Assembly (NCBI GenBank): GCA_964057225.1
Contig: OZ059894.1
Span: 11,098,001 to 11,162,000, forward strand
Direction: 5' to 3'
Origin: Auanema rhodensis
Taxonomy: Eukaryota > Animalia > Nematoda
Length of the DNA stretch: 64,000 bases
Part shown: in pieces, positions 1 to 41,830 of the stretch
Position numbering within the stretch: position 1 is the first letter of the stretch
Layout of the letters: each line of letters opens with the position of its first letter
Position numbers and translations under genes: made by a program
Notes under the pieces: generated by a model
Database searches by the model: none
Told to the model about the DNA's origin: nothing
Seen by the model: only the letters and a program-made list of their open reading frames with translations

Positions 1-1
1 T

Positions 2-3000
2 AGTAAATGCTGTTAAATGTCGATCTTCTTTACGCAGAGGTATTTGGAAGAATCCTGATACCAAATCAAAGTTAGTGAAGATGCATGCTCCTGCTGCTAG
101 ATCGAGAATATCTTGTATGTTTGAAATGACGTATATCTGCTTTAGTGTTATGGCATTTAATGCTCGAAAATCCGTAACAAAACGGTATGTTTTGTCCTTC
201 TTTTTGACGAGTATAACGGGACTTGTGGTAATAGAAATTGATGGTTCTATTATACCTTGTTCGAGCATTTCCTCCACCTGTTTTTCGACTTCTTCTTGTT
301 GAGTTAGAGGGATCCTGTATGTGATTTGAAATGATGGAAATTTTCCTGGTATGATAGGTATATTATGTTCCACTGGTCCTTTAAAAAGTCCGATATTGCG
401 ATCCTCGTTCAAGAAAGCTTCCTTATTTCTAAGTACTATTTTCTTTAATTCTTGTCTTTCCAATTGGGTGAAGATGGTGTTTGTTACGTCGAGATCCTTT
501 ATGAAGTCGTCTGGGAAGTATGGTAGTTGTTCTTCCCATCTTGCTTCCGGTGGGACGTATTGTCCTTTTTGTTCTTTGATATCTTTTGGGATAGCGTAAG
601 CAGTTCCGATTCCTTGATTTGTTTTAATTTTGATTGTTTCGGGTGAGATATTTGTAGCGAATATCTGAACCCCGTATCCTGTTGGCGTGAAAGTTGTAGG
701 GGCGAAAGTCATTTTTCCTATTCGTTGTGAACTTCTTATAAAAGCTTGTGCGTATGATGCTGGATCGTCTACTTCCAACGTGAGCGATCTGGTTTCTCCT
801 GGGTAAAACTGTTTAGTTTCCAGGCTTACTACATGAGCTATCGTGTGGTTCTCGGTCCACGGTGAGTAGTCTTGTGCTAGAGGTACTATTGTATCTCCGA
901 CTAGCAATGAATTCTGAAGTGGTCGCAATGATGTATTTATTCCTATTTTGCTGAGGGCTTCTATAAAGTCTATTCCTAATAAGATAGGTGCTGGGCAGTG
1001 GTTGTTGGCAGAAATCAGTATTTTGTGCTCAATCTCTGTTTTTCCAATAACAATTGGAAGTCTTGTGTAGCCCAGGAAGGAAAACCGTGATTTGTTTGCT
1101 ACGATAGCTGTTGTCTTTTCACCAACCATCGTTGCTGCCGGTAGTTGTTGAAATGTGCTTTCCTTCATATATGATATAGAAGCTCCTGTGTCCCATAAAG
1201 CAGTAAAGATCTGATTGTGGATGGAGAGAGGTACGAAAGGTAGTCGTGATCCTCCGATGTAGTTAATCCTTGATTCTTTCATGGCGTATCGTGGTAGATA
1301 GGCTAGAAAGTCGTTGTCTGATAGTGGAGCGTCGGGATCGTATCGGGAGATTCTTGAATAGAATTTGTTTTGTTGAGATTTATTCAGTGGTTGTAATTGC
1401 TGAAGTTCGATTTCTTTATTTTCTCGCCTTGGTTCTTCTTCTTCTTCTTTGAATGTTATTTGATTGATTGGTATCCTTGTGGTACATGCATATATTTTTA
1501 ATGCCCAGATGGTAGCAGTTATAAGTCCTATTGCGACGAGAATTCCTCCAATAATGGCTAGTGTCCTTAGTATCCATGCTGTAATTGATTCTCCTACATA
1601 TTCGAAGAAATTTGTGATTTGTTTTTCTGCGTTGTTTGATATGTTATCTGCTAACATTAATGTCGTTCCAACTGTTCCTCCTATAATGCCTATTGGATTT
1701 AGATCAGAGAATCCAGACTGTTTGAAGACTGGTTTCAGCTTTCCTGGCAGAGTGGCTTGTAAGGATGCTAAGCTCGATCCGTAGGAGATAGCCAGTGCCA
1801 TTGGAAATGTTGACTCCGTGAGGTTTGAAAATATGTTGGAATTGTTGAACTTAATGTGATCAATTTTTACAGATGTGAGTTCATCCGAAAATGAGAAGTG
1901 AGTTACATTCAATGTTGAATTATCTTTCATCCATTGATTGTTTATTTTGTAGGGATCTGATGTAGCCATATCGCATGCTATGATGTGAGCATATGGTGTC
2001 AAATCTCTTGATCCTGGTGTAATGAATAGTTTGCCGTGATGTTCCGTGTCTACAGGCGTCTCCAGGTAACATTTATCGTCTCGTTTGTGATCCGAATATA
2101 CATGTGTTATTTGTACAGGGGTGCATGGCATGACGTAGATGAGATGTTCTCCGACGAATTTGGCTGAAATGTCCTGTCGAAGAAGCATAGTGCGAATTCC
2201 TATGGTCGGATTAATTTGCAGGATTGCCCACCAGGTAAGTAGCTGTTTATTTTGCATTCTGCAAACGCTTTTCTTTGTTATTTGGAAAGCTTGTAAGATT
2301 TCCTCCTCGAGTTTTGACGTAGAGTATTGGAGGTGAGACCTTGTATCTTGTTGTCGTAGTTGATCATCGTATTTTTGAATAATATCTGCTCGTGTTCGTA
2401 GGAAATTGAGGTGTGCTTGTGATCCTGTGTGAGATTTAATTTCCTCTACCGGTTGAGTTGTTGTTGCTCGTTTTGTGGTAATCCGAGTTGTGGGAATTGT
2501 CCTAGGAGGTTCTCTGCGAGGTGTGGTAGTGAGAAGACGTGGTGGTGGAGTTACTGGAGTTGTTGTACTCTGGTAATAATGATATCTCCTTGGTGTGGTT
2601 GTGAATTGAGGTAAAGGTGTCCGATAAGTAGTAGTTGTCGGATCAACTGTGGTTGCAGGGGTTCTAGTGGTTGTTGTAGTTGTAGTAGTTGTGGTAGTGG
2701 TTGTCGTAGGACTAGCACCCGGTGACTCAATGAGCTGAAGATATGTTTGTTGAAATAATAAGCTGTCTTCTTCCGTGATGGGTCTGGCTGTAGGTAGTGT
2801 TTTCGGGAATCCGTAGTTTTGTGCGTGTCCGTTGAAGATGAGAGTATAGTTGGGAAAGGTAATCGTTGAAGAATTTGACTGTCTTGTGAGATCAGCCCAT
2901 TTCTTGTTTTCTGCTTCTCTTTCCTCTTTTGATATCCGGCTTAGACGATTGTTTTGAGCTAGGTATTCGAGAAATTTTTGTATTTCGTCTATCTGGGTGT

Positions 3001-6000
3001 AGACCTGTGTGTCTGTACGTGATCTAGGCAGTTTTGTCATTCTGGGTGGGTAAAGTTGGTATAAGTATTCCTCCAACGATGGAATAGTTTCTCCTGTAGC
3101 CAGAGTTGTAGGTGTCTGTGCTATTTCGAGTGCTATTTGTCTTGCTCGTTCGAGATAGTCGCCTTTGTGGTTTAGTAATCGTGTGGCAAAGTCGCTGATA
3201 GTGATTTGCTTGCTGAGTTTTGCCGTAATTTCTGATGGTAATAGATGTTCAATGGCGATTTCTGTGGAAAGTCGAATCTCGGCTTCTGCGAGTGTGTGTA
3301 GGATAACCATGTTGATATCGGTGTAGTTGTGCCATAAGAGTCGATATTTTAGTTTTGATGCTTCCAGTTGTAGGAATTTGATGAGCCCTATGTGTACGCT
3401 AGATGTTTTGAGGTAGTCTATAAGGTTATAGGTACTATCCAGTCTTTTACGATTTCGATATGTTTGGTACATTGGTAGTAATCCTGTAGAACTGTCTGTG
3501 AGGCGAAGTGATTGATAGATAGTGATGTTGAAGAATCTCGTAGGGTACTCCTGTGGTGCTTTTCTCTTTTGACGTCGGGGTTTTAACTCGTTGATGGAAA
3601 TGTACGTACCGCTGTCAGTTGAATAGATGTTCTTATTCATACATCTTGTAGCAATAGGGTCTGGCGTGTCGTCGTTGAGGATGAATGCTCCTTGTATTTC
3701 CGAGATTATAACAGTATCATTATTGATTAGTGCTTCGAATTTTCCTAAAGTTGTGTAATCACAATTTCGATGGTTATTGGGTGGGATCCATGTGATAACT
3801 GCGTTTGTGGTGTTGCATACACCTTGTTGTTTAGTGCATCCCTCAGTGTTGATAAACAAGTCGGAGATTATAGTGTCATCGTGTAGGCTAGTCATCATTC
3901 CTCTTTCTAATGTGAATCTTGATTTTGTTGTGCAAGAGGATGACCAGAACGATTTTGATTGAGCATTGGTAGGCATAGGAGTTTTGAATAGTCCTGGAGC
4001 TTCCCGATTGAGGTTGTTATCCGTGTGTCGTCTCTCTTGAATGGCTGTTTTGCATTCTTGTGGAGTGGCTGGTTCTATTCGGAGTAATGTGAGGTTGTTT
4101 TCCCTGATGAAGAATAAGTCGTAGGCGCAAGCTTTATAGATTTCCTTGGAGCATTTCCATGCTTCCCATTCTTTGTAATTCATATTTTCTGCAAATAGTT
4201 CCACTGTTTTTATCTTGACTCCGTCTTTGTGTGCATAGTCTGAGCAGGTTGTTGGTCGAGGTGGTTCGAGGAAAATACCTCCTCGTTTGCCGATGCAGAG
4301 TTGATAGGTGTTGTCTGCCTGACAGGGTATCAAAGATAAAGCGATGACGGATAAGAATAGCGGTATGAACGGAAGTGTCTTCCTTGTTTTTCCTGTTTCT
4401 TTCTCCACTTTGTTAACGTGAAAACGAACGCTAGGGCTTCTGGTACGATCTCTGTACCTGTTATGTTGTCCATGCGAAGTGTTGTGATTTCTTTGTTGGA
4501 ATCCGCGATCGTGATAGTTTCCGCGGTTGTATCGGTCGTTTCCTCTGTGCTCATGTCGATCGTTTCCTCTGTTATCATATCGGTCGTTTCTTCTGTTATC
4601 GTATCGATCGTTGTATCTATCGTACCGTTGAGGACTACGATAACTGTTGTATCCTCGTTGGTATCCATTGTTTCTGTTATCTTGTCTGAAGTTGGGACGG
4701 TTATTTTGTCGGTCGTCCTGGTATCTTGGTGGGCGGTATCCTCCTCTTCTTTGATTCCATCGTTCCTGTGGGCGTTGTGGTCTTGATTGATTTCCATAAA
4801 ACGTTCTTGGTTGGTGTGTTTGTGATTCGTCATGGGTTTTGTCCTGTTGTGAGGTTCTCATGTGGTTTATGAGACCGTTATTGATCTCTAATTGTTCCAC
4901 GTTTTTGATCAAGTTGTTGATATGTAGCGACGGATCTTCGTCGGCTTCTACTGTTTCGGCGATAGTTACAGCTGCATCGAAGGTTATAGGGCTGCGGTTA
5001 TTGACGTGTGTTCTTAAAGTCTTTCTTAGTCCTCCTAAGAACGAAACACGTAGTATTCTTTCGTCAGCTGTTGAGTCCATGTTGCATGATTCGTAAGCGA
5101 GATTTCTGCAACGTTGCGCGAAATTTTGTACCGTTTCGTTTTCTCCTTGTTTCAAATGGGTGAGTTTCGTAAATGCAGCATCCCTCTTTTCTGGAGGTTG
5201 TAATTTCTCCGATAGTAGACGTTTGACGTGGTTCCATCCTTGGCGTAAGTCTTCTGCTGGTATAGTTCGCAGAGCTTCGGCGGCTCTGTCCGTTCCAAGA
5301 AGTAGATAAAGATGGGAAAGTCTCTCGGCAATAGGGACTTGAAGTGCATCAAAATATCCTTCTAGTCTTTGCATGTAGAGATTGAATGGTACGGATCCAT
5401 CATAAAGCGTAGGTTTATGATGGCGAATAGAAACATTGTTGGCTCTCGCGATAGGAGGATTATCTTGCTCCATCTGATTTGCCATTTGAGGGCGACTTCT
5501 CTGCTCTGTAACATTCGAAGTCAAATTTATGTTATTGTCTGACGAAGAAGAGACAGGAGACAGAGAGTGCCCATGCAAAGATTGATCAGTGGAAGAGGGG
5601 GAATTTCTAGGAATAGGAGAAGTGAGGATTTCCGTGTTTTCGGTTTGAATAGGACGTTGAGGAGAAGTGTGATTTGGAAGATAAGTGTTAGTGCCGGTGT
5701 CAATGACTGTTTTTGGAGAGTGAGAAGAGCGTTTGGGCGTGGATTTACTAGATGTTGCTTTATTTTTATTCAAACTTATCGCATGCCTAGTAGTTTTGAT
5801 AGCAGTTGTATAAAGTTTCTTAGCGGTTAGCGGTGTGCCCGGAATGGGGGGTAATTTCTTTGATTTAGCGTTAGTTTTCGGATGTTTCGCATCTGGTCGA
5901 AATGCATCCGGTGGTCCTCTTTTTCTTTGGTTTCTATGCAGTGCTGCTTCCACTGTCTGGGTATTCTCTTCGCTATTTGTAGTGTTTTGGGTATTATTTC

Positions 6001-6034
6001 CCGGCGGAGGGTTTTGATTCGCTGTGTCAGCCAT
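2..6034 (-). CDS. Gag-Env-PR-RT polyprotein, >2011 aa, 3' partial (absent from the ORF track because there is no stop in the window)
   Basis: Manual translation. ATG at 6034 (aaaaATG, in-frame TAA 9 codons upstream). Gag motif LKQGENETVQNFAQRC...FLGGLRK (~5160-5020); signal peptide LPFIPLFLSVIALSLIPCQA; TM at ~1576-1490; protease ALWDTGAS (DTG 1192-1184); RT SPVILVKKKDKTYRFVTDFRALN...FDLVSGFFQIPL. All checked codons are in one frame and the ORF track lists no stop-terminated ORF in that frame. Confidence 0.9.
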   Translation of the reverse strand, partial: MADTANQNPPPGNNTQNTTNSEENTQTVEAALHRNQRKRGPPDAFRPDAKHPKTNAKSKKLPPIPGTPLTAKKLYTTAIKTTRHAISLNKNKATSSKSTPKRSSHSPKTVIDTGTNTYLPNHTSPQRPIQTENTEILTSPIPRNSPSSTDQSLHGHSLSPVSSSSDNNINLTSNVTEQRSRPQMANQMEQDNPPIARANNVSIRHHKPTLYDGSVPFNLYMQRLEGYFDALQVPIAERLSHLYLLLGTDRAAEALRTIPAEDLRQGWNHVKRLLSEKLQPPEKRDAAFTKLTHLKQGENETVQNFAQRCRNLAYESCNMDSTADERILRVSFLGGLRKTLRTHVNNRSPITFDAAVTIAETVEADEDPSLHINNLIKNVEQLEINNGLINHMRTSQQDKTHDESQTHQPRTFYGNQSRPQRPQERWNQRRGGYRPPRYQDDRQNNRPNFRQDNRNNGYQRGYNSYRSPQRYDRYNDRYDNRRNDRYDNRGNDRHEHRGNDRYNRGNYHDRGFQQRNHNTSHGQHNRYRDRTRSPSVRFHVNKVEKETGKTRKTLPFIPLFLSVIALSLIPCQADNTYQLCIGKRGGIFLEPPRPTTCSDYAHKDGVKIKTVELFAENMNYKEWEAWKCSKEIYKACAYDLFFIRENNLTLLRIEPATPQECKTAIQERRHTDNNLNREAPGLFKTPMPTNAQSKSFWSSSCTTKSRFTLERGMMTSLHDDTIISDLFINTEGCTKQQGVCNTTNAVITWIPPNNHRNCDYTTLGKFEALINNDTVIISEIQGAFILNDDTPDPIATRCMNKNIYSTDSGTYISINELKPRRQKRKAPQEYPTRFFNITIYQSLRLTDSSTGLLPMYQTYRNRKRLDSTYNLIDYLKTSSVHIGLIKFLQLEASKLKYRLLWHNYTDINMVILHTLAEAEIRLSTEIAIEHLLPSEITAKLSKQITISDFATRLLNHKGDYLERARQIALEIAQTPTTLATGETIPSLEEYLYQLYPPRMTKLPRSRTDTQVYTQIDEIQKFLEYLAQNNRLSRISKEEREAENKKWADLTRQSNSSTITFPNYTLIFNGHAQNYGFPKTLPTARPITEEDSLLFQQTYLQLIESPGASPTTTTTTTTTTTTTTRTPATTVDPTTTTYRTPLPQFTTTPRRYHYYQSTTTPVTPPPRLLTTTPRREPPRTIPTTRITTKRATTTQPVEEIKSHTGSQAHLNFLRTRADIIQKYDDQLRQQDTRSHLQYSTSKLEEEILQAFQITKKSVCRMQNKQLLTWWAILQINPTIGIRTMLLRQDISAKFVGEHLIYVMPCTPVQITHVYSDHKRDDKCYLETPVDTEHHGKLFITPGSRDLTPYAHIIACDMATSDPYKINNQWMKDNSTLNVTHFSFSDELTSVKIDHIKFNNSNIFSNLTESTFPMALAISYGSSLASLQATLPGKLKPVFKQSGFSDLNPIGIIGGTVGTTLMLADNISNNAEKQITNFFEYVGESITAWILRTLAIIGGILVAIGLITATIWALKIYACTTRIPINQITFKEEEEEPRRENKEIELQQLQPLNKSQQNKFYSRISRYDPDAPLSDNDFLAYLPRYAMKESRINYIGGSRLPFVPLSIHNQIFTALWDTGASISYMKESTFQQLPAATMVGEKTTAIVANKSRFSFLGYTRLPIVIGKTEIEHKILISANNHCPAPILLGIDFIEALSKIGINTSLRPLQNSLLVGDTIVPLAQDYSPWTENHTIAHVVSLETKQFYPGETRSLTLEVDDPASYAQAFIRSSQRIGKMTFAPTTFTPTGYGVQIFATNISPETIKIKTNQGIGTAYAIPKDIKEQKGQYVPPEARWEEQLPYFPDDFIKDLDVTNTIFTQLERQELKKIVLRNKEAFLNEDRNIGLFKGPVEHNIPIIPGKFPSFQITYRIPLTQQEEVEKQVEEMLEQGIIEPSISITTSPVILVKKKDKTYRFVTDFRALNAITLKQIYVISNIQDILDLAAGACIFTNFDLVSGFFQIPLRKEDRHLTAFT
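1487..4375 (-). other. Envelope glycoprotein domain (class III, herpesvirus gB-like) inside the polyprotein
   Basis: Signal peptide, Cys-rich ectodomain with N-glycosylation sequons, furin-like RRQKR (3577-3563) and RNRKR (3457-3443), gB-like CRMQNKQLLTWWAILQINPTIGIRTMLLRQDISAKFVGEHLIYVMPCTPV...CYLETPV, Gly-rich membrane-proximal segment and TM helix. Confidence 0.8.
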
Positions 6035-7599
6035 TTTTGTTGGTTTCCTGGAAGGAAATTATTAACCAACGAAGACTGAGCTTATATATACAAACGTAAG
6101 AAACAATATGGGGTTGGTATGCGCGACTCCTATTTCTGTCAGGGGGCCAGCCTGCAGCGGGTCTCTAGTCGGAGAATAGCCTGGTCAGGTTCATACACGA
6201 GTCCGCAACTACGTGTGACCTTAGCAAAGGACCGGGTTCTTATCTCACGAAGAGGCATGAGATGCGAGACAGTGGTCTGTGTATTGTGCCTTTTCAGTCA
6301 TGGACAAGATCAGGTACACAGGCTTCTCGAACTCATTTTTCCAGACTTCTCGTGCCTAAGCGAACCCGCAGAAGACGTTCCCTTTTAACGTTGCTTCTGC
6401 TCCCCTGGGCTCTGCTAGGTGGGACCACTTAACTTCAAAAAAATATTACGTTTTGTAATTCTCATATAGGACCGAAAAAGGGTTAATTTCAAATGAATGC
6501 GCGTCTTATATCAAAAGTGTACGCCTCCGCACGATGTCCCGAGAAAGTCTGGTATTGTTTCTCACGGGCTTGAATAAATAGAATAGTTTATGGTTTATGA
6601 ATAGGAAGTTTTACGAAGAGAAAAAAAATAGATGATTCAAGAATATGTTTTGGTAGTTTTTTTTTTTTTTTGAAAATGTCTTATAAATGATAATGAATAA
6701 ATGTTTTTAAAGTATTTTATAAATAGATTATGACAATAAATGTTTTGATTTGTTTGTTTCAAAAGAGTTTTCATGCATTATATGCTTTTAATATATATGA
6801 AATAAAATAAGAAAGAATGAAGTAAAGATAAAATTCGGGTAACATTTAGGAGATAAAATTGACAATTTTAGAAATAGAAGTTTGAATATTATATAAAGTT
6901 TTGATATGAAGGATAAAAGATTTTGAATACAAAAAGGATTTCGAAAAGTAGCGGAAATGGTCCATAGAGATCCGTCCGTTATAGACGGATCTCGGTGGAA
7001 CCTCCACGTTCCATTTGATTGCCCTAGGGTTCCGACTAGGGTTTTCAGATGGATTTTGTGCAAGGGTTTCATTGTTCAACAAGTAGTTAAATTAGCAACC
7101 GTTTTATTATATAGAGAAAACTACAATAGGAAATGTTATAAACTACAAACAAGTAAAGTTAAAGTCTAAAACTACATGATAGAAGATCTCCCTTAGTGTG
7201 TTTTCTACGGGTTTATATAGCAAACTATAGAATGTAAAAAGTGAATGAATTTGTATAAAAAGAATTACGTTCCACCTTATTCCGTGGAATCTTTTCTAAA
7301 AAGCTTTCGAATTCTAGTTTCTTATTTTATTTGATTAAACTAAAGTCGGTTGACATGCAAAGACATGAATAAACATAAATGTAAATACAGAATTACCAGG
7401 TAGTACATAAGTATGACAAAAAATTATAAGAAAGCCATGAAAATAGAAGGTTTGTGAACAAATGAGAGGTACATCTTTGATCGTATAGTCATTTCTAAAC
7501 CGTTCGTATGCTGCAGCATCGTCATAAGCGTCACTCAAGTTGAATTTCCATGTGTACTACACGATTTTCATTCTTATTGTTACATTCTTTCCCTGAGGG

Positions 7600-12326: not shown

Positions 12327-15300
12327 GGTTTATTGAATAAATAATGTTATGATACAATAAATAACCAATAAAAAAGAGCCCAGAATCGGGGAGACGGTAT
12401 TACCAGTACAACTTAAAACAGCAAGTGATTAAAAAGTACAAAATAAAACACATTACCAACAGAGGCTAAAACGACTCAAGAGTCGGGGGAGTGGGTTAAA
12501 AAAAGTAATGAATAACAAAAAAATGAATAATAAAGCAGAACAGTGAAAAGTAAATATCAAGTGCCGCTATGATCAAACAATTTGAGTGCCTACGGCAATG
12601 GTGTTAAAAATAAACAACAAAATACATGTACCAATGAAGGTCAGAAGGAAAGAGAAAAAAAAAAAAAAAAAAAAAAAGACCAAAATAAGTAATACAAAAA
12701 GTAAACACATTACAATCGAATCACAAACAAGTCAATGGATAATTTCTTCTTCATACTGCCTTACACCAGAAACATGTTCCACGTAGATATTCCTGGCCCA
12801 CTTGATGGTATCGGCGACGATGAGCTTCTCCATTAGCCGGTTGTAGTGGCTGCTGATCTTGAGTGATCGGAGGGCTTGTCCGTTGAGCGGGTCCATAGTT
12901 CCAAGCGTTCCTACGACATACGCTTCTACACTAGTCTTATAACCAAGACATTGGTATTGGCTGGCTATGTCAGCATATTTCCTCTCCTTTATCATACGCG
13001 CGGCTATCATGGCTTGTCGGCGGTTTTCATAGCTCACTGTAACATCAACGATACTACAGTGTTTTGCGTCATGATCGACCACTACTATGTCAGGTCGGAG
13101 TGTACTATTAATGCCAGGAAGTGGCTGGTTAGTGTAAACTTCTCCGTTTTTAGGCTCTGGCAGGGCTTTGATAAGACGGTCCACGATGTTGTTGTGGCGG
13201 AGTTGGATTGCTCTCGTGTGAAAGTGGCAGTGTCCAAGAACATGTGCAGCAGTTTCGTTGGGGTAACTACACCTGCGGCACTGTTTGTTTCCTTCTCCGT
13301 GTCTTCTACAGCCATTGAGCTGGAGAGTATTAAGTCGAGCCTTGTGGATGAATCGCCAATCAGCAAACCGTATGAAATCTCCCTTCGCCATAAAGTGATT
13401 GGACGCTTTGTTGAGCATTGTGACATCAAAGACTTTCCCTTGATCCGGTTTTTGAAGAAGGATCCGAAGGTCTTTCAGCCATAATGCACGTCGCAGGCTT
13501 CTGTGGCATAGTGAAGGTGTTAACAGTTGGTTGTTTAGATTGAGTTCTAAACCACTTTCGAGGCATGTCCAGTTAGCGTTGATGAGTTTCTTGAGTTGAC
13601 GCATCGCTACTCTTACTCTAGTCCAGATGGAGGAAACATCAGATGTTTCGGTGTCGAAAATGCCATCAACGGAACCGTTGTAATATGCAGCTGTCTCATC
13701 GTTACTGGCTTGACGTTTAATCCTTTTTGATGCTACTTTTTTTGAGTCTTGATGCGCAATATCAGCTACTACAAGATCAGATGACTTCAAAAGTTGGTAG
13801 GCATGAGTGACTTCACAGACGTCTGACAGGTGTTGGAGTCGAGAGAGACCAAGTCCGCCGTAGTTAGTTGGCAGGTAGATTGGTTCAGCACTGGCGTTTG
13901 GAGGATAGTGCATCCATCTACGGGCACAGCGTTTGAGTTCTTTGTCAAAGGCGACCAGTTTACTCTTTGGGACGTGGCCATTCGTCATATGAAAATTAAG
14001 GCAGGGCATCAGGAAGGTGCGTACTGCGTCAGCTTTCTGCCATTCAGCAAGTAAGGATTTGTCAATTTTTTCCAAGTGTTGACTCATAATATTCACTGTT
14101 GGAACCGCAGACTTATGTAAATGCATTCCAGTAGGGATTCCCAGGTGGGAGTAGCTGTCGAATTTGCTGAGAGCGGGTAGAGAGGAGCTCTGTAGCATGT
14201 ATGAGGCTGTTGATATTTTCCCTTTGTCGATCGTCAAGGTGGCGCATTTCGCTGGTTTGAAGGTCAAGCCTGTGAAATTAGCCGCATTTGATGCTGCGTC
14301 CAACATTTTCTGTAGATCTTCTGATGATGAGGAGATCAGGGCAAGGTCATCGGCGTACGCTAGCACAGCGATGTTGTGGTTGTGTAGCTTATAGCCAGTA
14401 GAGGATTCCAAGATGGTTTTAATTAGAGGTTCAATGGCAAGGTTGAACAGGATCGGAGATAGTGGGGATCCTTGTAACACACCTGCATGAACTGGAATGG
14501 TCGATGTGAGTCCGGAGCCTGTCTGGATTCTTGTAGAGGCATCTGTGTATAGAGCTCGTACTCGGGATATTGAGGCTTCAGCCACTCCTGACCATCTTAG
14601 AACGTCTAGCAGAGTTTCGTGTGGCAGCGATCCAAAAGCGTTTGCGAGATCAAGCCAAGCAATTGCAATTTTCTCACGTTTACGTTTAGCGTCCGCAATG
14701 GTACTTTGCAACATAAAGTTGTGTTCCATGCATCCAGCTTTGGCCACAAAGCCCTTTTGGGAGGGAGAAAGTCTTTTTTCTGCTCTTGCCCATGTTAGCA
14801 GTCGATGCGTAAGACAAGCTGAGTACGTCTTACCAATTGTGCACGAAAGTGCTATTGGTCGCCAGTTGTTAATGTCAGCTTTATCACCTTTCTTATGGAT
14901 GAGGACGGTGGTCGACTCTTTCCAGGAAAAAGGGATGTGTCCTAGCTTGTGTACGGTGTTAAATATCGCTGCTAATATGTGACCTCCTTGGTCAAATTTC
15001 TTCCAGTGCGAGTATCGAAGTCCATCAGCTCCTGGAGCCGTATCGCTGCAACGTCGTATGCGTTCCCAGACTTCCAAAGGGGTGAAAACACCTTCTAATG
15101 GGTCGGTACTAGCTGGCAAATCCGGTCTGGTGACTGTGATGGGGAGGGCTGGGCCTTGACTGCTGTGAACAGAAAGGAAATGTTTTTCAACCTCTGCAGA
15201 TGGTATGGTGCAGGTTTCACTTTGTTCTCCGAGCAGTTGTCGAAAGGCTTTCTTCTTGTTGGCCCTCCAGAGCTTCTGGAGCTTCATCGCCTGGGTTTTT

Positions 15301-16062
15301 TGGTCTTCCTCAGGTTGTGTGTGTGGTCGGCGCCTTTGTCGGAAGTTGGGAACTTTGATCATAATGTCAAGAGACTTTCTGATTGCGTCTACCAACTCTT
15401 CCAGGACCTGCTCGAGCTCACTTTTGCACACAACCTTTTTAATTCTATCCACCCAAGTATTTTCAGAGTTTCTATTCGGATCAGGGTCGGCAAAAGATGG
15501 TTCTGTACTCGGAACCCTGATCTCGTTGAATATTTCACTCTCTCGCGGAAGGGGGGAAACTTCGGCCTCTGGGGACAAGTCCAGAATTGGGGCCTCAAAC
15601 AAGCGTACCGTTGATGGAGATCCTTGTTCCTGTCCACTGGATGATGTTTCCTCCATTGTACGCTCCTCCACGGGCGGGGTGGTCGTCCTTGTGCCTGGTG
15701 GGCGGGTGTTCCTGATCCTCCGCAATATAGGGCGGGAACTGGGCTCTCTCGGAGATAGAGGTGAGATCACCACAGTTTCCTCTATGATGCGGAGGCATCC
15801 TTCAGCTTTTTTCTGATGGCTTTTAACGGCCTTCAGATTGCTGGTGAGGCCACAGGCACGGCACTCAAATTCTACTCCGACCTCATGTTCTCTCCGAAGA
15901 TGGCGGACGAGACCATTGTGGTCTGAGTAGGATCGCGGAATAGGAGCGCAGATTGAACAAGAAAAAGGCCTCTGAAGAGGCACCTTTAGCTTGTAAAGCC
16001 CTTGCTCCATCTCTAGCAGATCTAAAGACTTACGTAGTACAGTTGCAATATCGATTTAGCCA
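12327..16062 (-). mobile_element. U2-specific RLE non-LTR retrotransposon (Utopia/NeSL-like), copy 1, full length
   Basis: Inserted next to the U2 branch-point recognition sequence GTAGTA; single ORF with ZnF, RT and RLE; 3' UTR ends TTCAATAAACC(AT), no poly(A). Confidence 0.92.
12732..16010 (-). CDS. Non-LTR retrotransposon protein: 2 N-terminal Zn fingers, RT (YADD), CCHC knuckle, restriction-like endonuclease
   Basis: CSIC..H..H and CRAC; APGADG, NWRPIAL, WLDLANAFGSL, GVLQGSPLSPILF, YADD; CRRC-ETAAHVLGHC; RHN..PD..D..K..KY. Confidence 0.96.
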   Translation of the reverse strand: MEQGLYKLKVPLQRPFSCSICAPIPRSYSDHNGLVRHLRREHEVGVEFECRACGLTSNLKAVKSHQKKAEGCLRIIEETVVISPLSPREPSSRPILRRIRNTRPPGTRTTTPPVEERTMEETSSSGQEQGSPSTVRLFEAPILDLSPEAEVSPLPRESEIFNEIRVPSTEPSFADPDPNRNSENTWVDRIKKVVCKSELEQVLEELVDAIRKSLDIMIKVPNFRQRRRPHTQPEEDQKTQAMKLQKLWRANKKKAFRQLLGEQSETCTIPSAEVEKHFLSVHSSQGPALPITVTRPDLPASTDPLEGVFTPLEVWERIRRCSDTAPGADGLRYSHWKKFDQGGHILAAIFNTVHKLGHIPFSWKESTTVLIHKKGDKADINNWRPIALSCTIGKTYSACLTHRLLTWARAEKRLSPSQKGFVAKAGCMEHNFMLQSTIADAKRKREKIAIAWLDLANAFGSLPHETLLDVLRWSGVAEASISRVRALYTDASTRIQTGSGLTSTIPVHAGVLQGSPLSPILFNLAIEPLIKTILESSTGYKLHNHNIAVLAYADDLALISSSSEDLQKMLDAASNAANFTGLTFKPAKCATLTIDKGKISTASYMLQSSSLPALSKFDSYSHLGIPTGMHLHKSAVPTVNIMSQHLEKIDKSLLAEWQKADAVRTFLMPCLNFHMTNGHVPKSKLVAFDKELKRCARRWMHYPPNASAEPIYLPTNYGGLGLSRLQHLSDVCEVTHAYQLLKSSDLVVADIAHQDSKKVASKRIKRQASNDETAAYYNGSVDGIFDTETSDVSSIWTRVRVAMRQLKKLINANWTCLESGLELNLNNQLLTPSLCHRSLRRALWLKDLRILLQKPDQGKVFDVTMLNKASNHFMAKGDFIRFADWRFIHKARLNTLQLNGCRRHGEGNKQCRRCSYPNETAAHVLGHCHFHTRAIQLRHNNIVDRLIKALPEPKNGEVYTNQPLPGINSTLRPDIVVVDHDAKHCSIVDVTVSYENRRQAMIAARMIKERKYADIASQYQCLGYKTSVEAYVVGTLGTMDPLNGQALRSLKISSHYNRLMEKLIVADTIKWARNIYVEHVSGVRQYEEEIIH

Positions 16063-23490: not shown

Positions 23491-26400
23491 ATGGTTTATT
23501 GAATAACTAATGTTATGATACAATAAATAACCAATAAAAAAGAGCCCAGAATCGGGGAGACGGTATTACCAGTACAACTTAAAACAGCAAGTAATTAAAA
23601 AGTACATAATAAGACACATTGCCAACAGAGGCTAAAACGACTCAAGAGTCGGGGGAGTGGGTTAAAAAAAAATGAACAAAAAAAATGAATATTAAAGCAG
23701 AACAATGAGAAATCAAGTGCCGCTATGATCAAACAATTTGAGTGCCTACGGCAATGATGTTAAAAATAAACAACAAAATACATGTACCAATGAAGGTCAG
23801 AAAGAAAGAAACAAAAGACAAAATAAGTAATACAAAAAGTAAATACATTACAATCAAATCACAAACAAGTCAATTGATAATTTCTTCTTCATATTGCCTT
23901 ACACCAGAAACATGTTCCACGTAGATATTCCTGGCCCACTTGATGGTATCGGCGACGACGAGCTTCTCCATTAGCCGGTTGTAGTGGCTGCTGATCTTGA
24001 GTGATCGGAGGGCTTGTCCGTTGAGCGGGTCCATAGTTCCAAGCATTCCTACGACATACGCTTCTACACTAGTCTTATAACCAAGACATTGGTATTGGCT
24101 GGCTATGTCAGCATATTTCCTCTCCTTTATCATACGCGCGGCTATCATGGCTTGACGGCGGTTTTCATAGCTCACTGTAACATCAACGATACTACAGTGT
24201 TTTGCGTCATGATCGACCACTACTATGTCAGGTCGGAGTGTACTATTAATGCCAGGAAGAGGCTGGTTAGTGTAAACTTCTCCGTTTTTAGGCTCTGGCA
24301 GGGCTTTGATAAGACGGTCCACGATGTTGTTGTGGCGGAGTTGGATTGCTCTCGTGTGAGAGTGGCAGTGTCCAAGAACATGTGCAGCAGTTTCGTTGGA
24401 GTAACTACACCTGCGGCACTGTTTGTTTCCTTCTCCGTGTCTTCTACAGCCATTGAGCTGGAGAGTATTGAGTCGAGCCTTGTGGATGAATCGCCAATCA
24501 GCAAACCGTATGAAATCTCCCTTCGCCATAAAGTGATTGGACGCTTTGTTGAGCATTGTGACATCAAAGACTTTCCCTTGATCCGGTTTTTGAAGAAGGA
24601 TCCGAAGGTCTTTCAGCCATAATGCACGTCGCAGGCTTCTGTGGCATAGTGAAGGTGTTAACAGTTGGTTGTTTAGATTGAGTTCTAAACCACTTTCGAG
24701 GCATGTCCAGTTAGCGTTGATGAGTTTCTTGAGTTGACGCATCGCTACTCTTACTCTAGTCCAGATGGAGGAAACATCAGATGTTTCGGTGTCGAAAATG
24801 CCATCAACGGAACCGTTGTAATATGCAGCTGTCTCATCGTTACTGGCTTGACGTTTAATCCTTTTTGATGCTACTTTTTTTGAGTCTTGATGCGCAATAT
24901 CAGCTACTACAAGATCAGATGACTTCAAAAGTTGGTAGGCATGAGTGACTTCACAGACGTCTGACAGGTGTTGGAGTCGAGAGAGACCAAGTCCGCCGTA
25001 GTTAGTTGGCAGGTAGATTGGTTCAGCACTGGCGTTTGGAGGATAGTGCATCCATCTACGGGCACAGCGTTTGAGTTCTTTGTCAAAGGCGACTAGTTTA
25101 CTCTTTGGGACGTGGCCATTCGTCATATGAAAATTAAGGCAGGGCATCAGGAAGGTGCGTACTGCGTCAGCTTTCTGCCATTCAGCAAGTAAGGATTTGT
25201 CAATTTTTTCCAAGTGTTGACTCATAATATTCACTGTTGGAACCGCAGACTTATGTAAATGCATTCCAGTAGGGATTCCCAGGTGGGAGTAGCTGTCAAA
25301 TTTGCTAAGAGCGGGTAGAGAGGAGCTCTGTAGCATGTATGAGGCTGTTGATATTTTCCCTTTGTCGATCGTCAAGGTGGCGCATTTCGCTGGTTTGAAG
25401 GTCAAGCCTGTGAAATTAGCCGCATTTGATGCTGCGTCCAACATTTTCTGTAGATCTTCTGATGATGAGGAGACCAGGGCAAGGTCATCGGCGTACGCTA
25501 GCACAGCGATGTTGTGGTTGTGTAGCTTATAGCCTGTAGAGGTTTCCAAGATGGTTTTAATTAGAGGTTCAATGGCAAGGTTGAACAGGATCGGAGATAG
25601 TGGGGATCCTTGTAACACACCTGCGTGAACTGGAATGGTCGAAGTGAGTCCGGAGCCTGTCTGGATTCTTGTAGAGGCATCTGTGTATAGAGCTCGTACT
25701 CGGGATATTGAGGCTTCAGCCATTCCTGACCATCTTAGAACGTCTAGCAGAGTTTCGTGTGGCAGCGATCCAAAAGCGTTTGCGAGATCAAGCCAAGCAA
25801 TTGCAATTTTCTCACGTTTACGTTTAGCGTCCGCAATGGTACTTTGCAACATAAAGTTGTGTTCCATGCATCCAGCTTTGGCCACAAAGCCCTTTTGGGA
25901 GGGAGAAAGTCTTTTTTCTGCTCTTGCCCATGTTAGCAGTCGATGCGTAAGACAAGCTGAGTACGTCTTACCAATTGTGCACGAAAGTGCTATTGGTCGC
26001 CAGTTGTTAATGTCAGCTTTATCACCTTTCTTATGGATGAGGACGGTGGTCGACTCTTTCCAGGAAAAAGGGATGTGTCCTAGCTTGTGTACGGTGTTAA
26101 ATATCGCTGCTAATATGTGACCTCCTTGGTCAAATTTCTTCCAGTGCGAGTATCGAAGTCCATCAGCTCCTGGAGCCGTATCGCTGCAACGTCGTATGCG
26201 TTCCCAGACTTCCAAAGGGGTGAAAACACCTTCTAGTGGGTCGGTACTAGCTGGCAAATCCGGTCTGGTGACTGTGATGGGGAGGGCTGGGCCTTGACTG
26301 CTGTGAACAGAAAGGAAGTGTTTTTCAACCTCTGCAGATGGTATGGTGCAGGTTTCACTTTGTTCTCCGAGCAGTTGTCGAAAGGCTTTCTTCTTGTTGG

Positions 26401-27200
26401 CCCTCCAAAGCTTCTGGAGCTTCATCGCCTGGGTTTTTTGGTCTTCCTCAGGTTGTGTGTGTGGTCGGCGCCTTTGTCGGAAGTTGGGAACTTTGATCAT
26501 AATGTCAAGAGACTTTCTGATTGTGTCTACCAACTCTTCCAGGACCTGCTCGAGCTCACTTTTGCACACTACCTTTTTAATTCTATCCACCCAAATATTT
26601 TCAGAGTTTCTATTCGGATCAGGGTCGGCAAAAGATGGTTCTGTACTCGGAACCCTGATCTCGTTGAATATTTCACTCTCTCGCGGAAGGGGGGAAACTT
26701 CGGCCTCTGGGGACAAGTCCAGAATTGGGGCCTCAAACAAGCGTACCGTTGATGGAGATCCTTGTTCCTGTCCACTGGATGATGTTTCCTCCATTGTACG
26801 CTCCTCCACGGGCGGGGTGGTCGTCCTTGTGCCTGGTGGGCGGGTGTTCCTGATCCTCCGCAATATAGGGCGGGAACTGGGCTCTCTCGGAGATAGAGGT
26901 GAGATCACCACAGTTTCCTCTATGATGCGGAGACATCCTTCAGCTTTTTTCTGATGGCTTTTAACGGCCTTCAGATTGCTGGTGAGGCCACAGGCACGGC
27001 ACTCAAATTCTACTCTGACCTCATGTTCTCTCCGAAGATGGCGGACGAGACCATTGTGGTCTGAGTAGGATCGCGGAATAGGAGCGCAGATTGAACACGA
27101 AAAAGGGCTCTGAAGAGGCACCTTTAGCTTGTAAAGCCCTTGCTCCATCTCTAGCAGATCTAAAGACTTACGTAGTACAGTTGCAATATCGATTTAGCCA
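23491..27200 (-). mobile_element. U2-specific non-LTR retrotransposon, copy 2
   Basis: Near-identical to copy 1, same target. Confidence 0.92.
23870..27148 (-). CDS. Non-LTR RT/RLE protein, 1092 aa
   Basis: Intact ORF, same motifs as copy 1. Confidence 0.96.
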   Translation of the reverse strand: MEQGLYKLKVPLQSPFSCSICAPIPRSYSDHNGLVRHLRREHEVRVEFECRACGLTSNLKAVKSHQKKAEGCLRIIEETVVISPLSPREPSSRPILRRIRNTRPPGTRTTTPPVEERTMEETSSSGQEQGSPSTVRLFEAPILDLSPEAEVSPLPRESEIFNEIRVPSTEPSFADPDPNRNSENIWVDRIKKVVCKSELEQVLEELVDTIRKSLDIMIKVPNFRQRRRPHTQPEEDQKTQAMKLQKLWRANKKKAFRQLLGEQSETCTIPSAEVEKHFLSVHSSQGPALPITVTRPDLPASTDPLEGVFTPLEVWERIRRCSDTAPGADGLRYSHWKKFDQGGHILAAIFNTVHKLGHIPFSWKESTTVLIHKKGDKADINNWRPIALSCTIGKTYSACLTHRLLTWARAEKRLSPSQKGFVAKAGCMEHNFMLQSTIADAKRKREKIAIAWLDLANAFGSLPHETLLDVLRWSGMAEASISRVRALYTDASTRIQTGSGLTSTIPVHAGVLQGSPLSPILFNLAIEPLIKTILETSTGYKLHNHNIAVLAYADDLALVSSSSEDLQKMLDAASNAANFTGLTFKPAKCATLTIDKGKISTASYMLQSSSLPALSKFDSYSHLGIPTGMHLHKSAVPTVNIMSQHLEKIDKSLLAEWQKADAVRTFLMPCLNFHMTNGHVPKSKLVAFDKELKRCARRWMHYPPNASAEPIYLPTNYGGLGLSRLQHLSDVCEVTHAYQLLKSSDLVVADIAHQDSKKVASKRIKRQASNDETAAYYNGSVDGIFDTETSDVSSIWTRVRVAMRQLKKLINANWTCLESGLELNLNNQLLTPSLCHRSLRRALWLKDLRILLQKPDQGKVFDVTMLNKASNHFMAKGDFIRFADWRFIHKARLNTLQLNGCRRHGEGNKQCRRCSYSNETAAHVLGHCHSHTRAIQLRHNNIVDRLIKALPEPKNGEVYTNQPLPGINSTLRPDIVVVDHDAKHCSIVDVTVSYENRRQAMIAARMIKERKYADIASQYQCLGYKTSVEAYVVGMLGTMDPLNGQALRSLKISSHYNRLMEKLVVADTIKWARNIYVEHVSGVRQYEEEIIN

Positions 27201-27259: not shown

Positions 27260-30200
27260 ATGGTTTATTGAATAACTAATGTTATGAAACAATAAATAAC
27301 CAATAAAAAAGAGCCCAGAATCGGGGAGACGGTATTACCAGTACAACTTAAAACAGCAAGTGATTAAAAAGTACAAAATAAAACACATTACCAACAGAGG
27401 CTAAAACGACTCAAGAGTCGGGGGAGTGGGTTAAAAAAAGTAATGAATAACAAAAAAAATGAATAATAAAGCAGAACAGTGAAAAGTAAATATCAAGTGC
27501 CGCTATGATCAAACAATTTGAGTGCCTACGGCAATGGTGTTAAAAATAAACAACAAAATACATGTACCAATGAAGGTCAGAAAGAGAGAAAGAAAAAAGA
27601 CAAAAATAAGTAATACAAAAAGTAAAAAATATATTACAATCAAATCACAAACAAGTCAATGGATAATTTCTTCTTCATACTGCCTTACACCAGAAACATG
27701 TTCCACGTAGATATTCCTGGCCCACTTGATGGTATCGGCGACGACGAGCTTCTCCATTAGCCGGTTGTAGTGGCTGCTGATCTTGAGTGATCGGAGGGCT
27801 TGTACGTTGAGCGGGTCCATAGTTCCAAGCATTCCTACGACATACGCTTCTACACTAGTCTTATAACCAAGACATTGGTATTGGCTGGCTATGTCAGCAT
27901 ATTTCCTCTCCTTTATCATACGCGCGGCTATCATGGCTTGTCGGCGGTTTTCATAGCTCACTGTAACATCAACGATACTACAGTGTTTTGCGTCATGATC
28001 GACCACTACTATGTCAGGTCGGAGTGTACTATTAATGCCAGGAAGAGGCTGGTTAGTGTAAACTTCTCCGTTTTTAGGCTCTGGCAGGGCTTTGATAAGA
28101 CGGTCCACGATGTTGTTGTGGCGGAGTTGGATTGCTCTCGTGTGAAAGTGGCAGTGTCCAAGAACATGTGCAGCAGTTTCGTTGGGGTAACTACACCTGC
28201 GGCACTGTTTGTTTCCTTCTCCGTGTCTTCTACAGCCATTGAGCTGGAGAGTATTAAGTCGAGCCTTGTGGATGAATCGCCAATCAGCAAACCGTATGAA
28301 ATCTCCCTTCGCCATAAAGTGATTGGACGCTTTGTTGAGCATTGTGACATCAAAGACTTTCCCTTGATCCGGTTTTTGAAGAAGGATCCGAAGGTCTTTC
28401 AGCCATAATGCACGTCGCAGGCTTCTGTGGCATAGTGAAGGTGTTAACAGTTGGTTGTTTAGATTGAGTTCTAAACCACTTTCGAGGCATGTCCAGTTAG
28501 CGTTGATGAGTTTCTTGAGTTGACGCATCGCTACTCTTACTCTAGTCCAGATGGAGGAAACATCAGATGTTTCGGTGTCGAAAATGCCATCAACGGAACC
28601 GTTGTAATATGCAGCTGTCTCATCGTTACTGGCTTGACGTTTAATCCTTTTTGATGCTACTTTTATTGAGTCTTGATGCGCAATATCAGCTACTACAAGA
28701 TCAGATGACTTCAAAAGTTGGTAGGCATGAGTGACTTCACAGACGTCTGACAGGTGTTGGAGTCGAGAGAGACCAAGTCCGCCGTAGTTGGTTGGCAGGT
28801 AGATTGGTTCAGCACTGGCGTTTGGAGGATAGTGCATCCATCTACGGGCACAGCGTTTGAGTTCTTTGTCAAAGGCGACTAGTTTACTCTTTGGGACGTG
28901 GCCATTCGTCATATGAAAATTAAGGCAGGGCATCAGGAAGGTGCGTACTGCGTCAGCTTTCTGCCATTCAGCCAGTAAGGATTTGTCAATTTTTTCCAAG
29001 TGTTGACTCATGATATTCACTGTTGGAACCGCAGACTTATGTAAATGCATTCCAGTAGGGATTCCCAGGTGGGAGTAGCTGTCAAATTTGCTGAGAGCGG
29101 GTAGAAAGCAGCTCTGAAGCATGTATGAGGCTGTTGATATTTTCCCTTTGTCGATCGTCAAAGTGGCGCATTTCGCTGGTTTGAAGGTCAAGCCTGTGAA
29201 ATTAGCCGCATTTGATGCTGCGTCCAACATTTTCTGTAGATCTTCTGATGATGAGGAGACCAGGGCAAGGTCATCGGCGTACGCTAGCACAGCGATGTTG
29301 TGATTGTGTAGCTTATAGCCTGTAGAGGTTTCCAAGATGGTTTTAATTAGAGGTTCAATGGCAAGGTTGAACAGGATCGGAGATAGTGGGGATCCTTGTA
29401 ACACACCTGCGTGAACTGGAATGGTCGAAGTGAGTCCGGAGCCTGTCTGGATTCTTGTAGAGGCATCTGTGTATAGAGCTCGTACTCGGGATATTGAGGC
29501 TTCAGCCATTCCTGACCATCTTAGAACGTCTAGCAGAGTTTCGTGTGGCAGCGATCCAAAAGCGTTTGCGAGATCAAGCCAAGCAATTGCAATTTTCTCA
29601 CGTTTACGTTTAGCGTCTGCAATGGTACTTTGCAACAAAAAGTTGTGTTCCATGCATCCAGCTTTGGCCACAAAGCCCTTTTGGGAGGGAGAAAGTCTTT
29701 TTTCTGCTCTTGCCCATGTTAGCAGTCGATGCGTAAGACAAGCTGAGTACGTCTTACCAATTGTGCACGAAAGTGCTATTGGTCGCCAGTTGTTAATGTC
29801 AGCTTTATCACCTTTCTTATGGATGAGGACGGTGGTCGACTCTTTCCAGGAAAAAGGGATGTGTCCTAGCTTGTGTACGGTGTTAAATATCGCTGCTAAT
29901 ATGTGACCTCCTTGGTCAAATTTCTTCCAGTGCGAGTATCGAAGTCCATCAGCTCCTGGAGCCGTATCGCTGCAACGTCGTATGCGTTCCCAGACTTCCA
30001 AAGGGGTGAAAACACCTTCTAATGGGTCGGTACTAGTTGGCAAATCCGGTCTGGTGACTGTGATGGGGAGGGCTGGGCCTTGACTGCTGTGAACAGAAAG
30101 GAAGTGTTTTTCAACATCTGCAGATGGTATGGTGCAGGTTTCACTTTGTTCTCCGAGCAGTTGTCGAAAGGCTTTCTTCTTGTTGGCCCTCCAAAGCTTC

Positions 30201-31940: not shown

Positions 31941-32270
31941 TGTCACGGTCAACGTGAAAATACGAACTTTATTGTGTTAACGTTTTGTTTGTATTTTTTG
32001 TATTAACTCCACCCCCTTTAACCATCTGGTGCCTCCCTATAAAAGGGAGAACCAAATGGTTAAAATTTTTATGTCTCACCAATTTTGTATTGATTTTAGA
32101 ATTTTCTTGGAAATTCTAAAATCAATCCACTTGTTAACTTTACTGTTGTTGCATTTGTTGAATAAACCTTTCTTCATTTAACTTGTCTTAACGCATAATA
32201 CCGCACTCATACGAACCGACTCCATACTTGGACTGATACTTGGAGGTAAAAGTTCAGTTGTCAAGCGACA
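31941..32270 (+). repeat. 5' LTR
   Basis: tgtcacgg...gcgaca; TATAAAA at 32038, AATAAA at 32161. Confidence 0.97.
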
Positions 32271-32272
32271 TT

Positions 32273-32290
32273 TGGCGACCACGGCAGGAT
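32273..32290 (+). other. Primer-binding site, tRNA-Arg(ACG)-like
   Basis: TGGCGACCACGGCAGGAT is complementary to ...ATCCTGCCGTGGTCG-CCA, which I recall as the nematode tRNA-Arg 3' end. Confidence 0.85.
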
Positions 32291-32325
32291 ATTTCAGTTG
32301 CTTACTGATAAGGAAAGTTTAAAAC

Positions 32326-32418
32326 AAAGGTTATATAGAACCGCCGGAGAAATAAATTCCGAAGAACATTGTGTTAAAGGTTATATAGAACCGCCGGAGA
32401 AATAAAATTCCGAAGAAC
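32326..32418 (+). repeat. Two-copy ~42-bp direct repeat in the BEL leader
   Basis: aaaggttatatagaaccgccggagaaataaa(a)ttccgaagaac twice. Confidence 0.9.
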
Positions 32419-32518
32419 TCGTAGAAAATCCGAGTTGACAAGAAATCACTTGTCAAGAAACAATAAGACGATAAAAATATCGCTGAATCTGAAATATCCA
32501 TTGAGGAAGGCTAAAATA

Positions 32519-41821: not shown

Positions 41822-41830
41822 TGCCGGGAA

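What the first reader, a model, noticed from the sequence alone, without database searches (positions are those of the whole stretch)
2..6034. Hidden Gypsy polyprotein in the order Gag - gB-like Env - protease - RT, all in one frame
Seen: one uninterrupted frame in which a ~960-aa type I membrane glycoprotein (signal peptide, furin sites, TM) lies between Gag and the protease. The segment CRMQNKQLLTWWAILQINP...ISAKFVG...MPCTPV...CY resembles the herpesvirus gB motif WC-QN-E---W-E--K-NP...VSA---GD---V--C--V...CY. Known: retroviruses and errantiviruses put env after pol; gB-like env is known from the Ascaris Tas element, which is BEL/Pao. Inference: Gag is released at an internal signal peptide and Pol is made tethered to the Env cytoplasmic tail at 1:1:1 stoichiometry, an alphavirus/flavivirus-like membrane polyprotein strategy in a retroelement. 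I cannot exclude that this order has been reported in surveys of env-bearing Gypsy elements.
Basis: partly seen in the sequence, partly recalled or inferred. Interest (0 to 1): 0.85.

Follow-up and report, generated by a model that had tools for sequence, protein, structure and literature searches.

The report
Nematode retrovirus-like element, envelope inside polyprotein
This is a virus-like jumping gene, most likely from a roundworm, whose single long protein carries a herpesvirus-type membrane-fusion protein between its capsid and its enzymes; that layout is already published for nematodes, and the addition here is a predicted set of cut sites by which the element's own protease would free capsid and enzymes from the membrane.

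Summary
6034->2 (-) is one stop-free frame of 2011 codons: Gag, internal signal peptide, class III (gB-like) fusogen, TM helix, protease, start of RT. The Env model matches herpesvirus gB (Z 13.2). Of 153 relatives, 14 show the full Gag-Env-PR-RT-RH-IN order. A ~90%-identical sister subfamily keeps env in place, so it is no one-off insertion.

The order is not new. Chary and Hayashi (eLife 2026, PMC13524379) state that nematode, bryozoan and flatworm gB-type Ty3/gypsy elements are GAG-ENV-POL, crediting Sacco 2022. This copy has the tRNA-Gln primer site of 8 of their 36 nematode elements. The scan noted the layout before in two other genomes.

Added here: a [VIL][NH]x[VIL] motif, like retrotransposon-protease sites, is five-fold enriched before the signal peptide and in the Env tail, but is in 1 of 14 BEL/Pao controls. 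Gag and Pol are therefore likely membrane-anchored until the element's protease cuts. Env also has a 405-residue furin-led insert with a Thr-rich tract. Processing and stoichiometry are untested. New member of a known kind.

The parts
7007..7356 (-). Probable 5' LTR (~350 nt; ends inferred, no 3' LTR in the window to confirm)
   Evidence: Identity to the U2/5S array spacer stops at 7357 in all 11 array units that match up to that point; the element begins (A)TGTC; the PBS follows at 7006. The LTRs of the 8 tRNA-Gln nematode elements in the eLife table are about 170-425 nt.
6995..7006 (-). Primer-binding site for tRNA-Gln
   Evidence: 12 of 12 complementary to the tRNA-Gln 3' end listed in PMC13524379 supplementary file 1; occurs once in the window on both strands. 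An 18-nt match to 6989 rests on a recalled tRNA sequence.
6035..6988 (-). ~950-nt leader with 9 upstream ATGs; nematode-type 3' splice-acceptor-like hexamer at 6053-6048, ending 13 nt before the start codon
   Evidence: about 0.02 expected by chance in 30 nt; consensus recalled; use untested
4379..6034 (-). Gag (aa 1-552): disordered N-terminus, capsid domain, R/N/D/Y-rich repeat region, no zinc knuckle seen
   Evidence: Pfam Retrotrans_gag aa 248-337, E 8.6e-7; sequence
4406..4417 (-). Predicted viral-protease site (aa 540-543) that would free Gag from its signal anchor
   Evidence: inferred, not shown to be cut
4316..4378 (-). Internal signal peptide (aa 553-573), predicted cleavage after Ala573
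   Evidence: KD19 peak 2.08; a similar stretch scores above 2 in 42 of 47 Gag-Env proteins; no SignalP available
3584..4315 (-). Env N-terminal part (class III domains I/II, aa 574-817)
   Evidence: 10 cysteines kept in 39-58 aligned rows each; beta-rich, pLDDT mostly 80-97
3563..3574 (-). Furin-type site (aa 821-824)
2363..3577 (-). 405-aa lineage-specific insert in Env: predicted helical domain (aa ~832-1102), then a Thr-rich mucin-like tract (aa ~1110-1195, nt 2707-2450)
   Evidence: no Pfam hit, no Atlas hit; direct BLAST similarity to 2 of 31 other long inserts (P0007, P0008)
1835..2362 (-). Env central helix and crown (domains III/IV, aa 1225-1400), the gB-like segment
   Evidence: Pfam PF24664 and PF00606; PDB profile hits to gB, E 4e-18
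1499..1564 (-). Env transmembrane helix (aa 1491-1512)
   Evidence: KD19 2.35; present in 49 of 50 Env-PR proteins
1250..1498 (-). 83-aa cytoplasmic tail linking Env to the protease, with two predicted viral-protease sites (aa 1523-1526, 1590-1593)
950..1249 (-). Aspartyl protease (aa 1596-1695, D-T-G at 1615)
   Evidence: Pfam gag-asp_proteas E 9e-7
2..310 (-). N-terminal part of a Ty3/gypsy reverse transcriptase, cut by the window edge
   Evidence: Pfam RVT_1; 61% identity to P0001; identical contigs run on past base 1 in runs X3, X4, X5

Best explanation
This is the 5' part of a Ty3/gypsy endogenous retrovirus-like element of the published nematode GAG-ENV-POL kind, with Gag, a gB-type fusion protein, protease and RT in one reading frame, and it likely works as a membrane-spanning polyprotein cut by both host and element proteases. 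Shown: the frame, the domain order, the fold, the tRNA-Gln primer site, and conservation of order and both hydrophobic anchors in relatives. Inferred: (1) an internal signal after Gag threads Env into the ER and signal peptidase cuts after Ala573, leaving Gag anchored on the cytosolic face; (2) the TM helix stops transfer, so protease-RT-(RH-IN) hang in the cytosol on the Env tail; (3) capsid, fusogen and enzymes thus gather on one membrane and bud together; (4) the element's protease then cuts at [VIL]-N-x-[VIL] sites next to both anchors, freeing Gag and Pol, much as a flavivirus capsid is cut from its anchor (recalled analogy); (5) furin cuts Env at aa 824, ahead of a variable insert whose Thr-rich tract would shield or extend the spike.
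For: Frame and order. Fold. Relatives: 52 of 153 have Gag before Env, 54 Env before a Pol domain, 29 both, 14 the full order; 8 of the 14 come from 8-12.6 kb JGI/Logan/ENA contigs rather than NCBI/UniRef gene models. The tree places it with two Caenorhabditis elements and P0001 (C. auriculariae) at 100/98. Sister subfamily contigs cross both the gag/env and env/protease borders (records 29 and 10); 30 of the 39 listed in-frame differences are at third codon positions, p 3e-8. Motif, with the six seed proteins left out: 1.25 per 100 residues before the signal and in the tail against 0.25 in the ectodomain; 20 observed against 2.7 in shuffles and 46 against 11.4; 1 of 14 BEL/Pao proteins with the same Env. 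Ty1 protease sites have V/I at P2 and P2' and hydrophilic P1, one being I-N/N-V (PMC6952103 passages). Published order: PMC13524379.
Against: No protein or RNA data: cleavage, topology and budding are predictions. The motif is in only 20 of 40 pre-signal regions and 27 of 43 tails, about 5 of the 20 come from one subclade, and I defined it from six of these proteins. The motif precedent read is Ty1 (copia type), not a gypsy protease. RNase H, integrase and the 3' LTR were not seen. The probable LTR does not end in the usual CA before the PBS. The model's pTM is only 0.39. The host is inferred from relatives and neighbours, not given.
Confidence: 0.75

Rival explanations
1. Same element, but Gag and Pol are mostly made from spliced or deleted messages, or from deleted sister copies, so the full membrane polyprotein is a minor product and the ratio is not 1:1:1.
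For: A 1:1:1 ratio would oversupply Env and Pol relative to a capsid's needs (general knowledge). Sister-subfamily contigs are deeper over gag than over env and protease (X3: about 435-453, 225-256 and 124, against about 30 for the identical copy; X4 shows the same gradient, X5 a weaker one). The leader has a splice-acceptor-like site.
Against: Strict donor-like patterns occur only in the leader (6565, 6248) and acceptor-like ones only at 6053 and 2169, so no consensus pair would skip env. None of the 5 joints listed in 4 DNA runs removes env cleanly. Contig depth is not a copy number.
Confidence: 0.2
2. Env is a one-off nested insertion or gene-model fusion inside an ordinary gag-pol element.
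For: Several database relatives are eukaryotic gene models that could splice across stops.
Against: Raw stop-free frame; the same order in 14 relatives, each representing a separate 50%-identity cluster or found; sister copies keep the block with mostly third-position changes; published for 36 nematode elements.
Confidence: 0.02
3. A host-domesticated fusogen or decayed relic rather than a mobile element.
For: The identical copy appears at one low depth level in each run; its 3' half is unseen.
Against: An intact PBS, a sharp edge against the array spacer, protease and RT in frame, and a diverged sister subfamily in the same runs.
Confidence: 0.03

Closest known systems
Nematode GAG-ENV-POL errantiviruses with HSV/gB-type Env (Chary and Hayashi, eLife 2026, PMC13524379; seen: abstract, passages, Discussion part 1 of 2, all 36 Nematoda rows of supplementary file 1)
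   Same: Ty3/gypsy pol, gB-type Env placed between gag and pol, tRNA-Gln PBS (8 of 36 nematode rows), LTR-sized 5' segment.
   Different: The main text has no occurrence of 'polyprotein', 'single ORF', 'splic', 'frameshift', 'fused' or 'mucin', so processing and the Env insert are not discussed in those words. Figures and supplementary files 2-6 were not seen, so I cannot say whether this family or the insert appears there.
NERVs, Nematoda endogenous retroviruses (Sacco et al. 2022, J Gen Virol, doi 10.1099/jgv.0.001739; seen only as a reference entry and as described in PMC13524379; the rest recalled)
   Same: Env and pol in flipped order in nematode ERVs; the title says an RNA-virus glycoprotein was captured by a metavirus. 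Recalled from the abstract: one continuous gag-env-pro-pol ORF, with Env resembling Nyamiviridae glycoproteins, which agrees with the nyamivirus hits.
   Different: Text not held, so any discussion of processing there is unseen. Recalled extra ORFs of some NERVs lie downstream and cannot be checked in this window.
Tas (Ascaris) and other BEL/Pao elements with gB-like Env; Atlas virus (PMC9094657, passages seen)
   Same: Tas has a gB-like Env; Atlas is a single Gag-Pol-Env polyprotein in a nematode. 14 hits with this Env are BEL/Pao-like.
   Different: Different superfamily, env after pol; the gypsy-type motif is nearly absent before their signal peptide (1 of 14). Atlas Env is class II.
Flavivirus/alphavirus structural polyproteins (recalled)
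   Same: Works like: capsid, then an internal signal, then a glycoprotein, with host signal peptidase and viral protease cutting on opposite sides of the membrane.
   Different: Unrelated reverse-transcribing element with a class III fusogen; an analogy only.

Membership tests
Ty3/gypsy (Metaviridae) | RT closest to gypsy RTs, not BEL/Pao or non-LTR | tested here: met
   131-aa piece: 61% to gypsy P0001 (E 2e-52), 26% to the window's BEL RT (E 2e-6), no match to its non-LTR RT; tree of env-bearing relatives only
Ty3/gypsy (Metaviridae) | Pol order PR-RT-RH-IN | tested here: inconclusive
   PR-RT in the window, RH and IN beyond the edge; the closest relative P0001 has PR-RT-RH-IN
Ty3/gypsy (Metaviridae) | Paired LTRs and a tRNA primer-binding site | tested here: inconclusive
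   PBS met, 12/12 tRNA-Gln; only a probable 5' LTR, no genome held
Nematode GAG-ENV-POL errantiviruses / NERV | env between gag and pol | tested here: met
Nematode GAG-ENV-POL errantiviruses / NERV | HSV/gB-type (class III) Env flanked by signal peptide and TM | tested here: met
Nematode GAG-ENV-POL errantiviruses / NERV | One continuous gag-env-pro-pol ORF (criterion recalled from the Sacco abstract) | tested here: met
   2011 codons without a stop up to the window edge
Nematode GAG-ENV-POL errantiviruses / NERV | Host is a chromadorean nematode; pol groups with nematode elements | tested here: inconclusive
   The closest named relatives are Caenorhabditis, Auanema and Pristionchus proteins, and the neighbours are nematode-type elements; the host is not given and the published reference sets were not in the tree
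BEL/Pao (Tas-like) | Peptidase_A17/DUF1759 domains and env after integrase | tested here: not met
   no such Pfam hits and env precedes the protease; BEL-type hits separate cleanly

The most novel reading that the evidence does not exclude
GAG-ENV-POL gypsy elements use a flavivirus-like two-protease assembly switch not described for retroelements in the papers I could read. Gag and Pol are held on the budding membrane by Env's own signal and TM anchors, replacing matrix targeting and Gag-Env recognition, until the element's protease cuts conserved [VIL]-N-x-[VIL] sites beside both anchors. In one set of lineages the fusogen's furin loop has also become a cargo site for an uncharacterised helical domain plus a mucin-like stalk, a candidate receptor-binding or shielding module for a gB-type protein that works without gH/gL.
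Probability: 0.5. Interest if true: 0.55.

Novelty: new member of a known kind. Interest (0 to 1): 0.25.

Why it matters
The gene order itself is known, so this copy mainly adds one more well-preserved member. What could matter is the processing map. It gives exact, testable cut positions for how a retroelement could build an enveloped particle from one membrane-spanning polyprotein. It also points to a large variable insert as a candidate attachment module for gB-type fusogens that lack herpesvirus partner proteins; the eLife paper says their entry mechanism is unknown.

Tried and rejected
No whole genome held, so RH, IN, the 3' LTR and the target-site duplication could not be read. The Sacco 2022 text is not held. 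Paper searches for further descriptions of the order returned only PMC13524379 as relevant; most subscription papers are outside the library. No RNA holder was listed among sequencing runs; this is no evidence on expression. Read evidence covers 1-6600 only, so LTR and PBS have none. Related-locus scans: two alignments had no usable conserved stretch, and two single-protein scans of metagenome contigs found no relative, so relatives' LTRs were not examined. The insert folded alone gave pLDDT 36.5, so I did not run a fold search on it; it had no Atlas hit and no Pfam hit, which shows neither novelty nor absence. Late-domain motifs (PT/SAP, PPxY, YPxL), suggested by an earlier scan note: none in the Env tail, one PPxY in Gag. 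The joint 3113-4152 in one DNA run rests on 23 letters and was set aside. The idea that sister copies lack RT was dropped, because run X1 has extra depth over 1-440. The BEL/Pao control was translated from the wrong strand and is void; it was redone. No look-alike of this Env in earlier scan findings by sequence.
Full report
Observation. The minus-strand frame 2..6058 has no stop and runs off the window; from the Met at 6034 it encodes 2011 residues. Pfam places, in order, Retrotrans_gag (aa 248-337), Monjiviricetes_fusion (1233-1376, E 1.9e-19), Glycoprotein_B (1233-1313, E 1.1e-7, below cut-off), an aspartyl protease (1602-1692) and the start of RT (1943-2011). The only two strong hydrophobic stretches are aa 553-571 and 1491-1509, and there is one strict furin site at aa 821-824.

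Env fold. A 68-row alignment keeps 14 ectodomain cysteines in most rows but is thin over aa 824-1223. Its profile finds herpesvirus gB chains (best E 4e-18) and, more weakly, chains named only 'Glycoprotein' (E 2e-5) and a rabies G ectodomain (E 0.11) in the PDB. The AlphaFold2 model (pLDDT 67, pTM 0.39) matches gB by Foldseek (E 2.8e-13) and VIA-align (Z 13.2, 393 residues, rmsd 6.1). In BFVD the best matches are rhabdo-like and nyamivirus glycoproteins (E 1.1e-18). It is a class III fusogen, at least as close to negative-strand RNA virus glycoproteins as to herpes gB. Between the conserved halves lies a 405-aa insert: a furin site, a predicted helical domain, then a Thr-rich tract. It is the second longest among 78 proteins measured (range 8-500), and it aligns directly with 2 of 31 other long inserts.

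Element. The match to the U2/5S array spacer stops at 7357. At 7006-6995 lies a 12/12 complement of the tRNA-Gln 3' end listed in the eLife supplement. The ~350 nt between are the probable 5' LTR; it does not end in CA and has no partner in the window. The RT piece is 61% identical to a Caenorhabditis auriculariae gypsy polyprotein and 26% to the BEL/Pao RT in the same window. On a protease-plus-RT tree of 24 env-bearing rows it groups with P0001, P0010 and P0021, all Caenorhabditis proteins, at 100/98; rows without both domains were left out, and 11 of 21 inner branches are open. The host is therefore most likely a rhabditid nematode (inference).

Not a one-off. Five full-length-range relatives were found among 7461 candidates, and 253 among the 50%-identity representatives, of which 150 were listed. 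Among the 153 distinct proteins held, local profiles give Gag before Env in 52, Env before a Pol domain in 54, both in 29 and the full Gag-Env-PR-RT-RH-IN order in 14. Eight of the 14 come from short JGI, Logan or ENA contigs. Fourteen other hits resemble BEL/Pao elements, the longer ones with env after pol. In four DNA runs, contigs of a ~90%-identical sister subfamily cross the gag/env border (X5 record 29) and the env/TM/protease border (X3 record 10), and none of 5 listed joints removes env cleanly. Of the 39 in-frame differences shown (577 more were not shown), 30 are at third codon positions (p 3e-8).

Known? Yes. PMC13524379 says that errantiviruses in Nematoda, Bryozoa and Platyhelminthes carry only HSV/gB-type Env and are arranged GAG-ENV-POL, and credits Sacco et al. 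2022 for nematode ERVs with env and pol flipped (passages). Its table lists 36 nematode elements, 8 with tRNA-Gln. That Sacco described one continuous gag-env-pro-pol ORF is recalled; the text is not held. A single-ORF Gag-Pol-Env polyprotein is also known from the nematode Atlas virus, and gB-like Env from Tas (PMC9094657 passages). Two earlier scan notes report the same layout in other genomes, one a flatworm and one probably so; I saw them after finding the paper.

Mechanism. A signal-like stretch follows Gag in 46 of 47 Gag-Env proteins (42 above 2.0), and a TM helix precedes the protease in 49 of 50, with tails of 49-142 aa. Topology then puts Gag and Pol in the cytosol, each tied to the membrane (inference). 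Signal peptidase alone would leave Gag anchored. The window protein has [VIL]-N-x-[VIL] at aa 540, 1523 and 1590, beside both anchors, among 9 such sites in all. With the six seed proteins left out, the motif occurs at 1.25 per 100 residues in the 40 aa before the signal (20 of 40 proteins) and in the tail (27 of 43), 0.88 after the protease (9 of 25), and 0.25 in the ectodomain. Shuffles give 2.7 (maximum 9) against 20 and 11.4 (maximum 21) against 46. Upstream of the signal the sites cluster at 0-40 aa (20) with a gap at 40-80 aa (2). Only 1 of 14 BEL/Pao proteins with the same Env has one, and in that one no signal was found. Ty1 protease sites have V/I at P2 and P2' with hydrophilic P1 (PMC6952103 passages). 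I read these as sites for the element's protease (inferred, about 70%). Against this: half the proteins lack the strict motif, some carriers are close kin, and nothing was shown biochemically. On stoichiometry, strict splice patterns give no env-skipping pair but do give an acceptor-like site just before the start codon. Sister contigs are deeper over gag than over env and protease, a weak hint that extra Gag may come from deleted copies. The 1:1:1 claim stays open.

Verdict. A real, well-preserved, new member of a published group. The main text of PMC13524379 lacks the words polyprotein, single ORF, splic-, frameshift, fused and mucin, and searches found no other paper on the order. The processing map and the insert may thus be unreported, but Sacco 2022, the figures and supplementary files 2-6 were not seen. 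Interest 0.25; the novel reading has probability 0.5 and interest 0.55.

Noticed in passing
window 7357-61000: Tandem array of U2 snRNA and 5S rRNA genes with a unit of about 2.1-2.5 kb: 35 Rfam hits, 16 to U2 (7 full-score) and 19 to 5S. The gypsy element sits about 240 nt downstream of a U2 gene, in the same orientation.
   Followed up: partly
window 12732-16055, 23870-27193, 27656-30979, 49103-52426, 57402-59030 (all -): Four near-identical 1107-codon non-LTR retrotransposon frames and one 5'-truncated copy. U2 matches resume at U2 nt 38-40 next to them, which fits the U2-targeting Utopia family (name recalled).
   Followed up: partly
window 31941-42160 (+): Apparently intact BEL/Pao element: 2657-codon Gag-Pol-Env frame with Phlebovirus_G2 (class II) Env, 330-nt LTRs 100% identical, TG...CA ends and a 5-nt target duplication; Atlas-like. 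A second such element is cut by the right edge (61282-64000, -).
   Followed up: partly
window 1-6600, runs X1, X3, X4, X5: Each run holds both an identical copy at low depth and a sister subfamily about 87-94% identical at higher depth, deeper over gag than over env and protease. This is a weak hint of deleted gag-rich copies that could supply extra capsid; one loose end in X4 fits a deletion from about 2106 to about 600.
   Followed up: partly
proteins P0002, P0004, P0014, P0019, P0030, P0103: Several relatives carry two or three tandem aspartyl-protease-like domains after the Env tail.
   Followed up: no
window 2363-3577 (-) and relatives: The gap between the two conserved halves of this Env runs from 8 to 500 aa among 78 proteins; 25 exceed 150 aa. 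The long inserts fall into mutually unalignable groups, and many end in Thr-rich tracts.
   Followed up: partly
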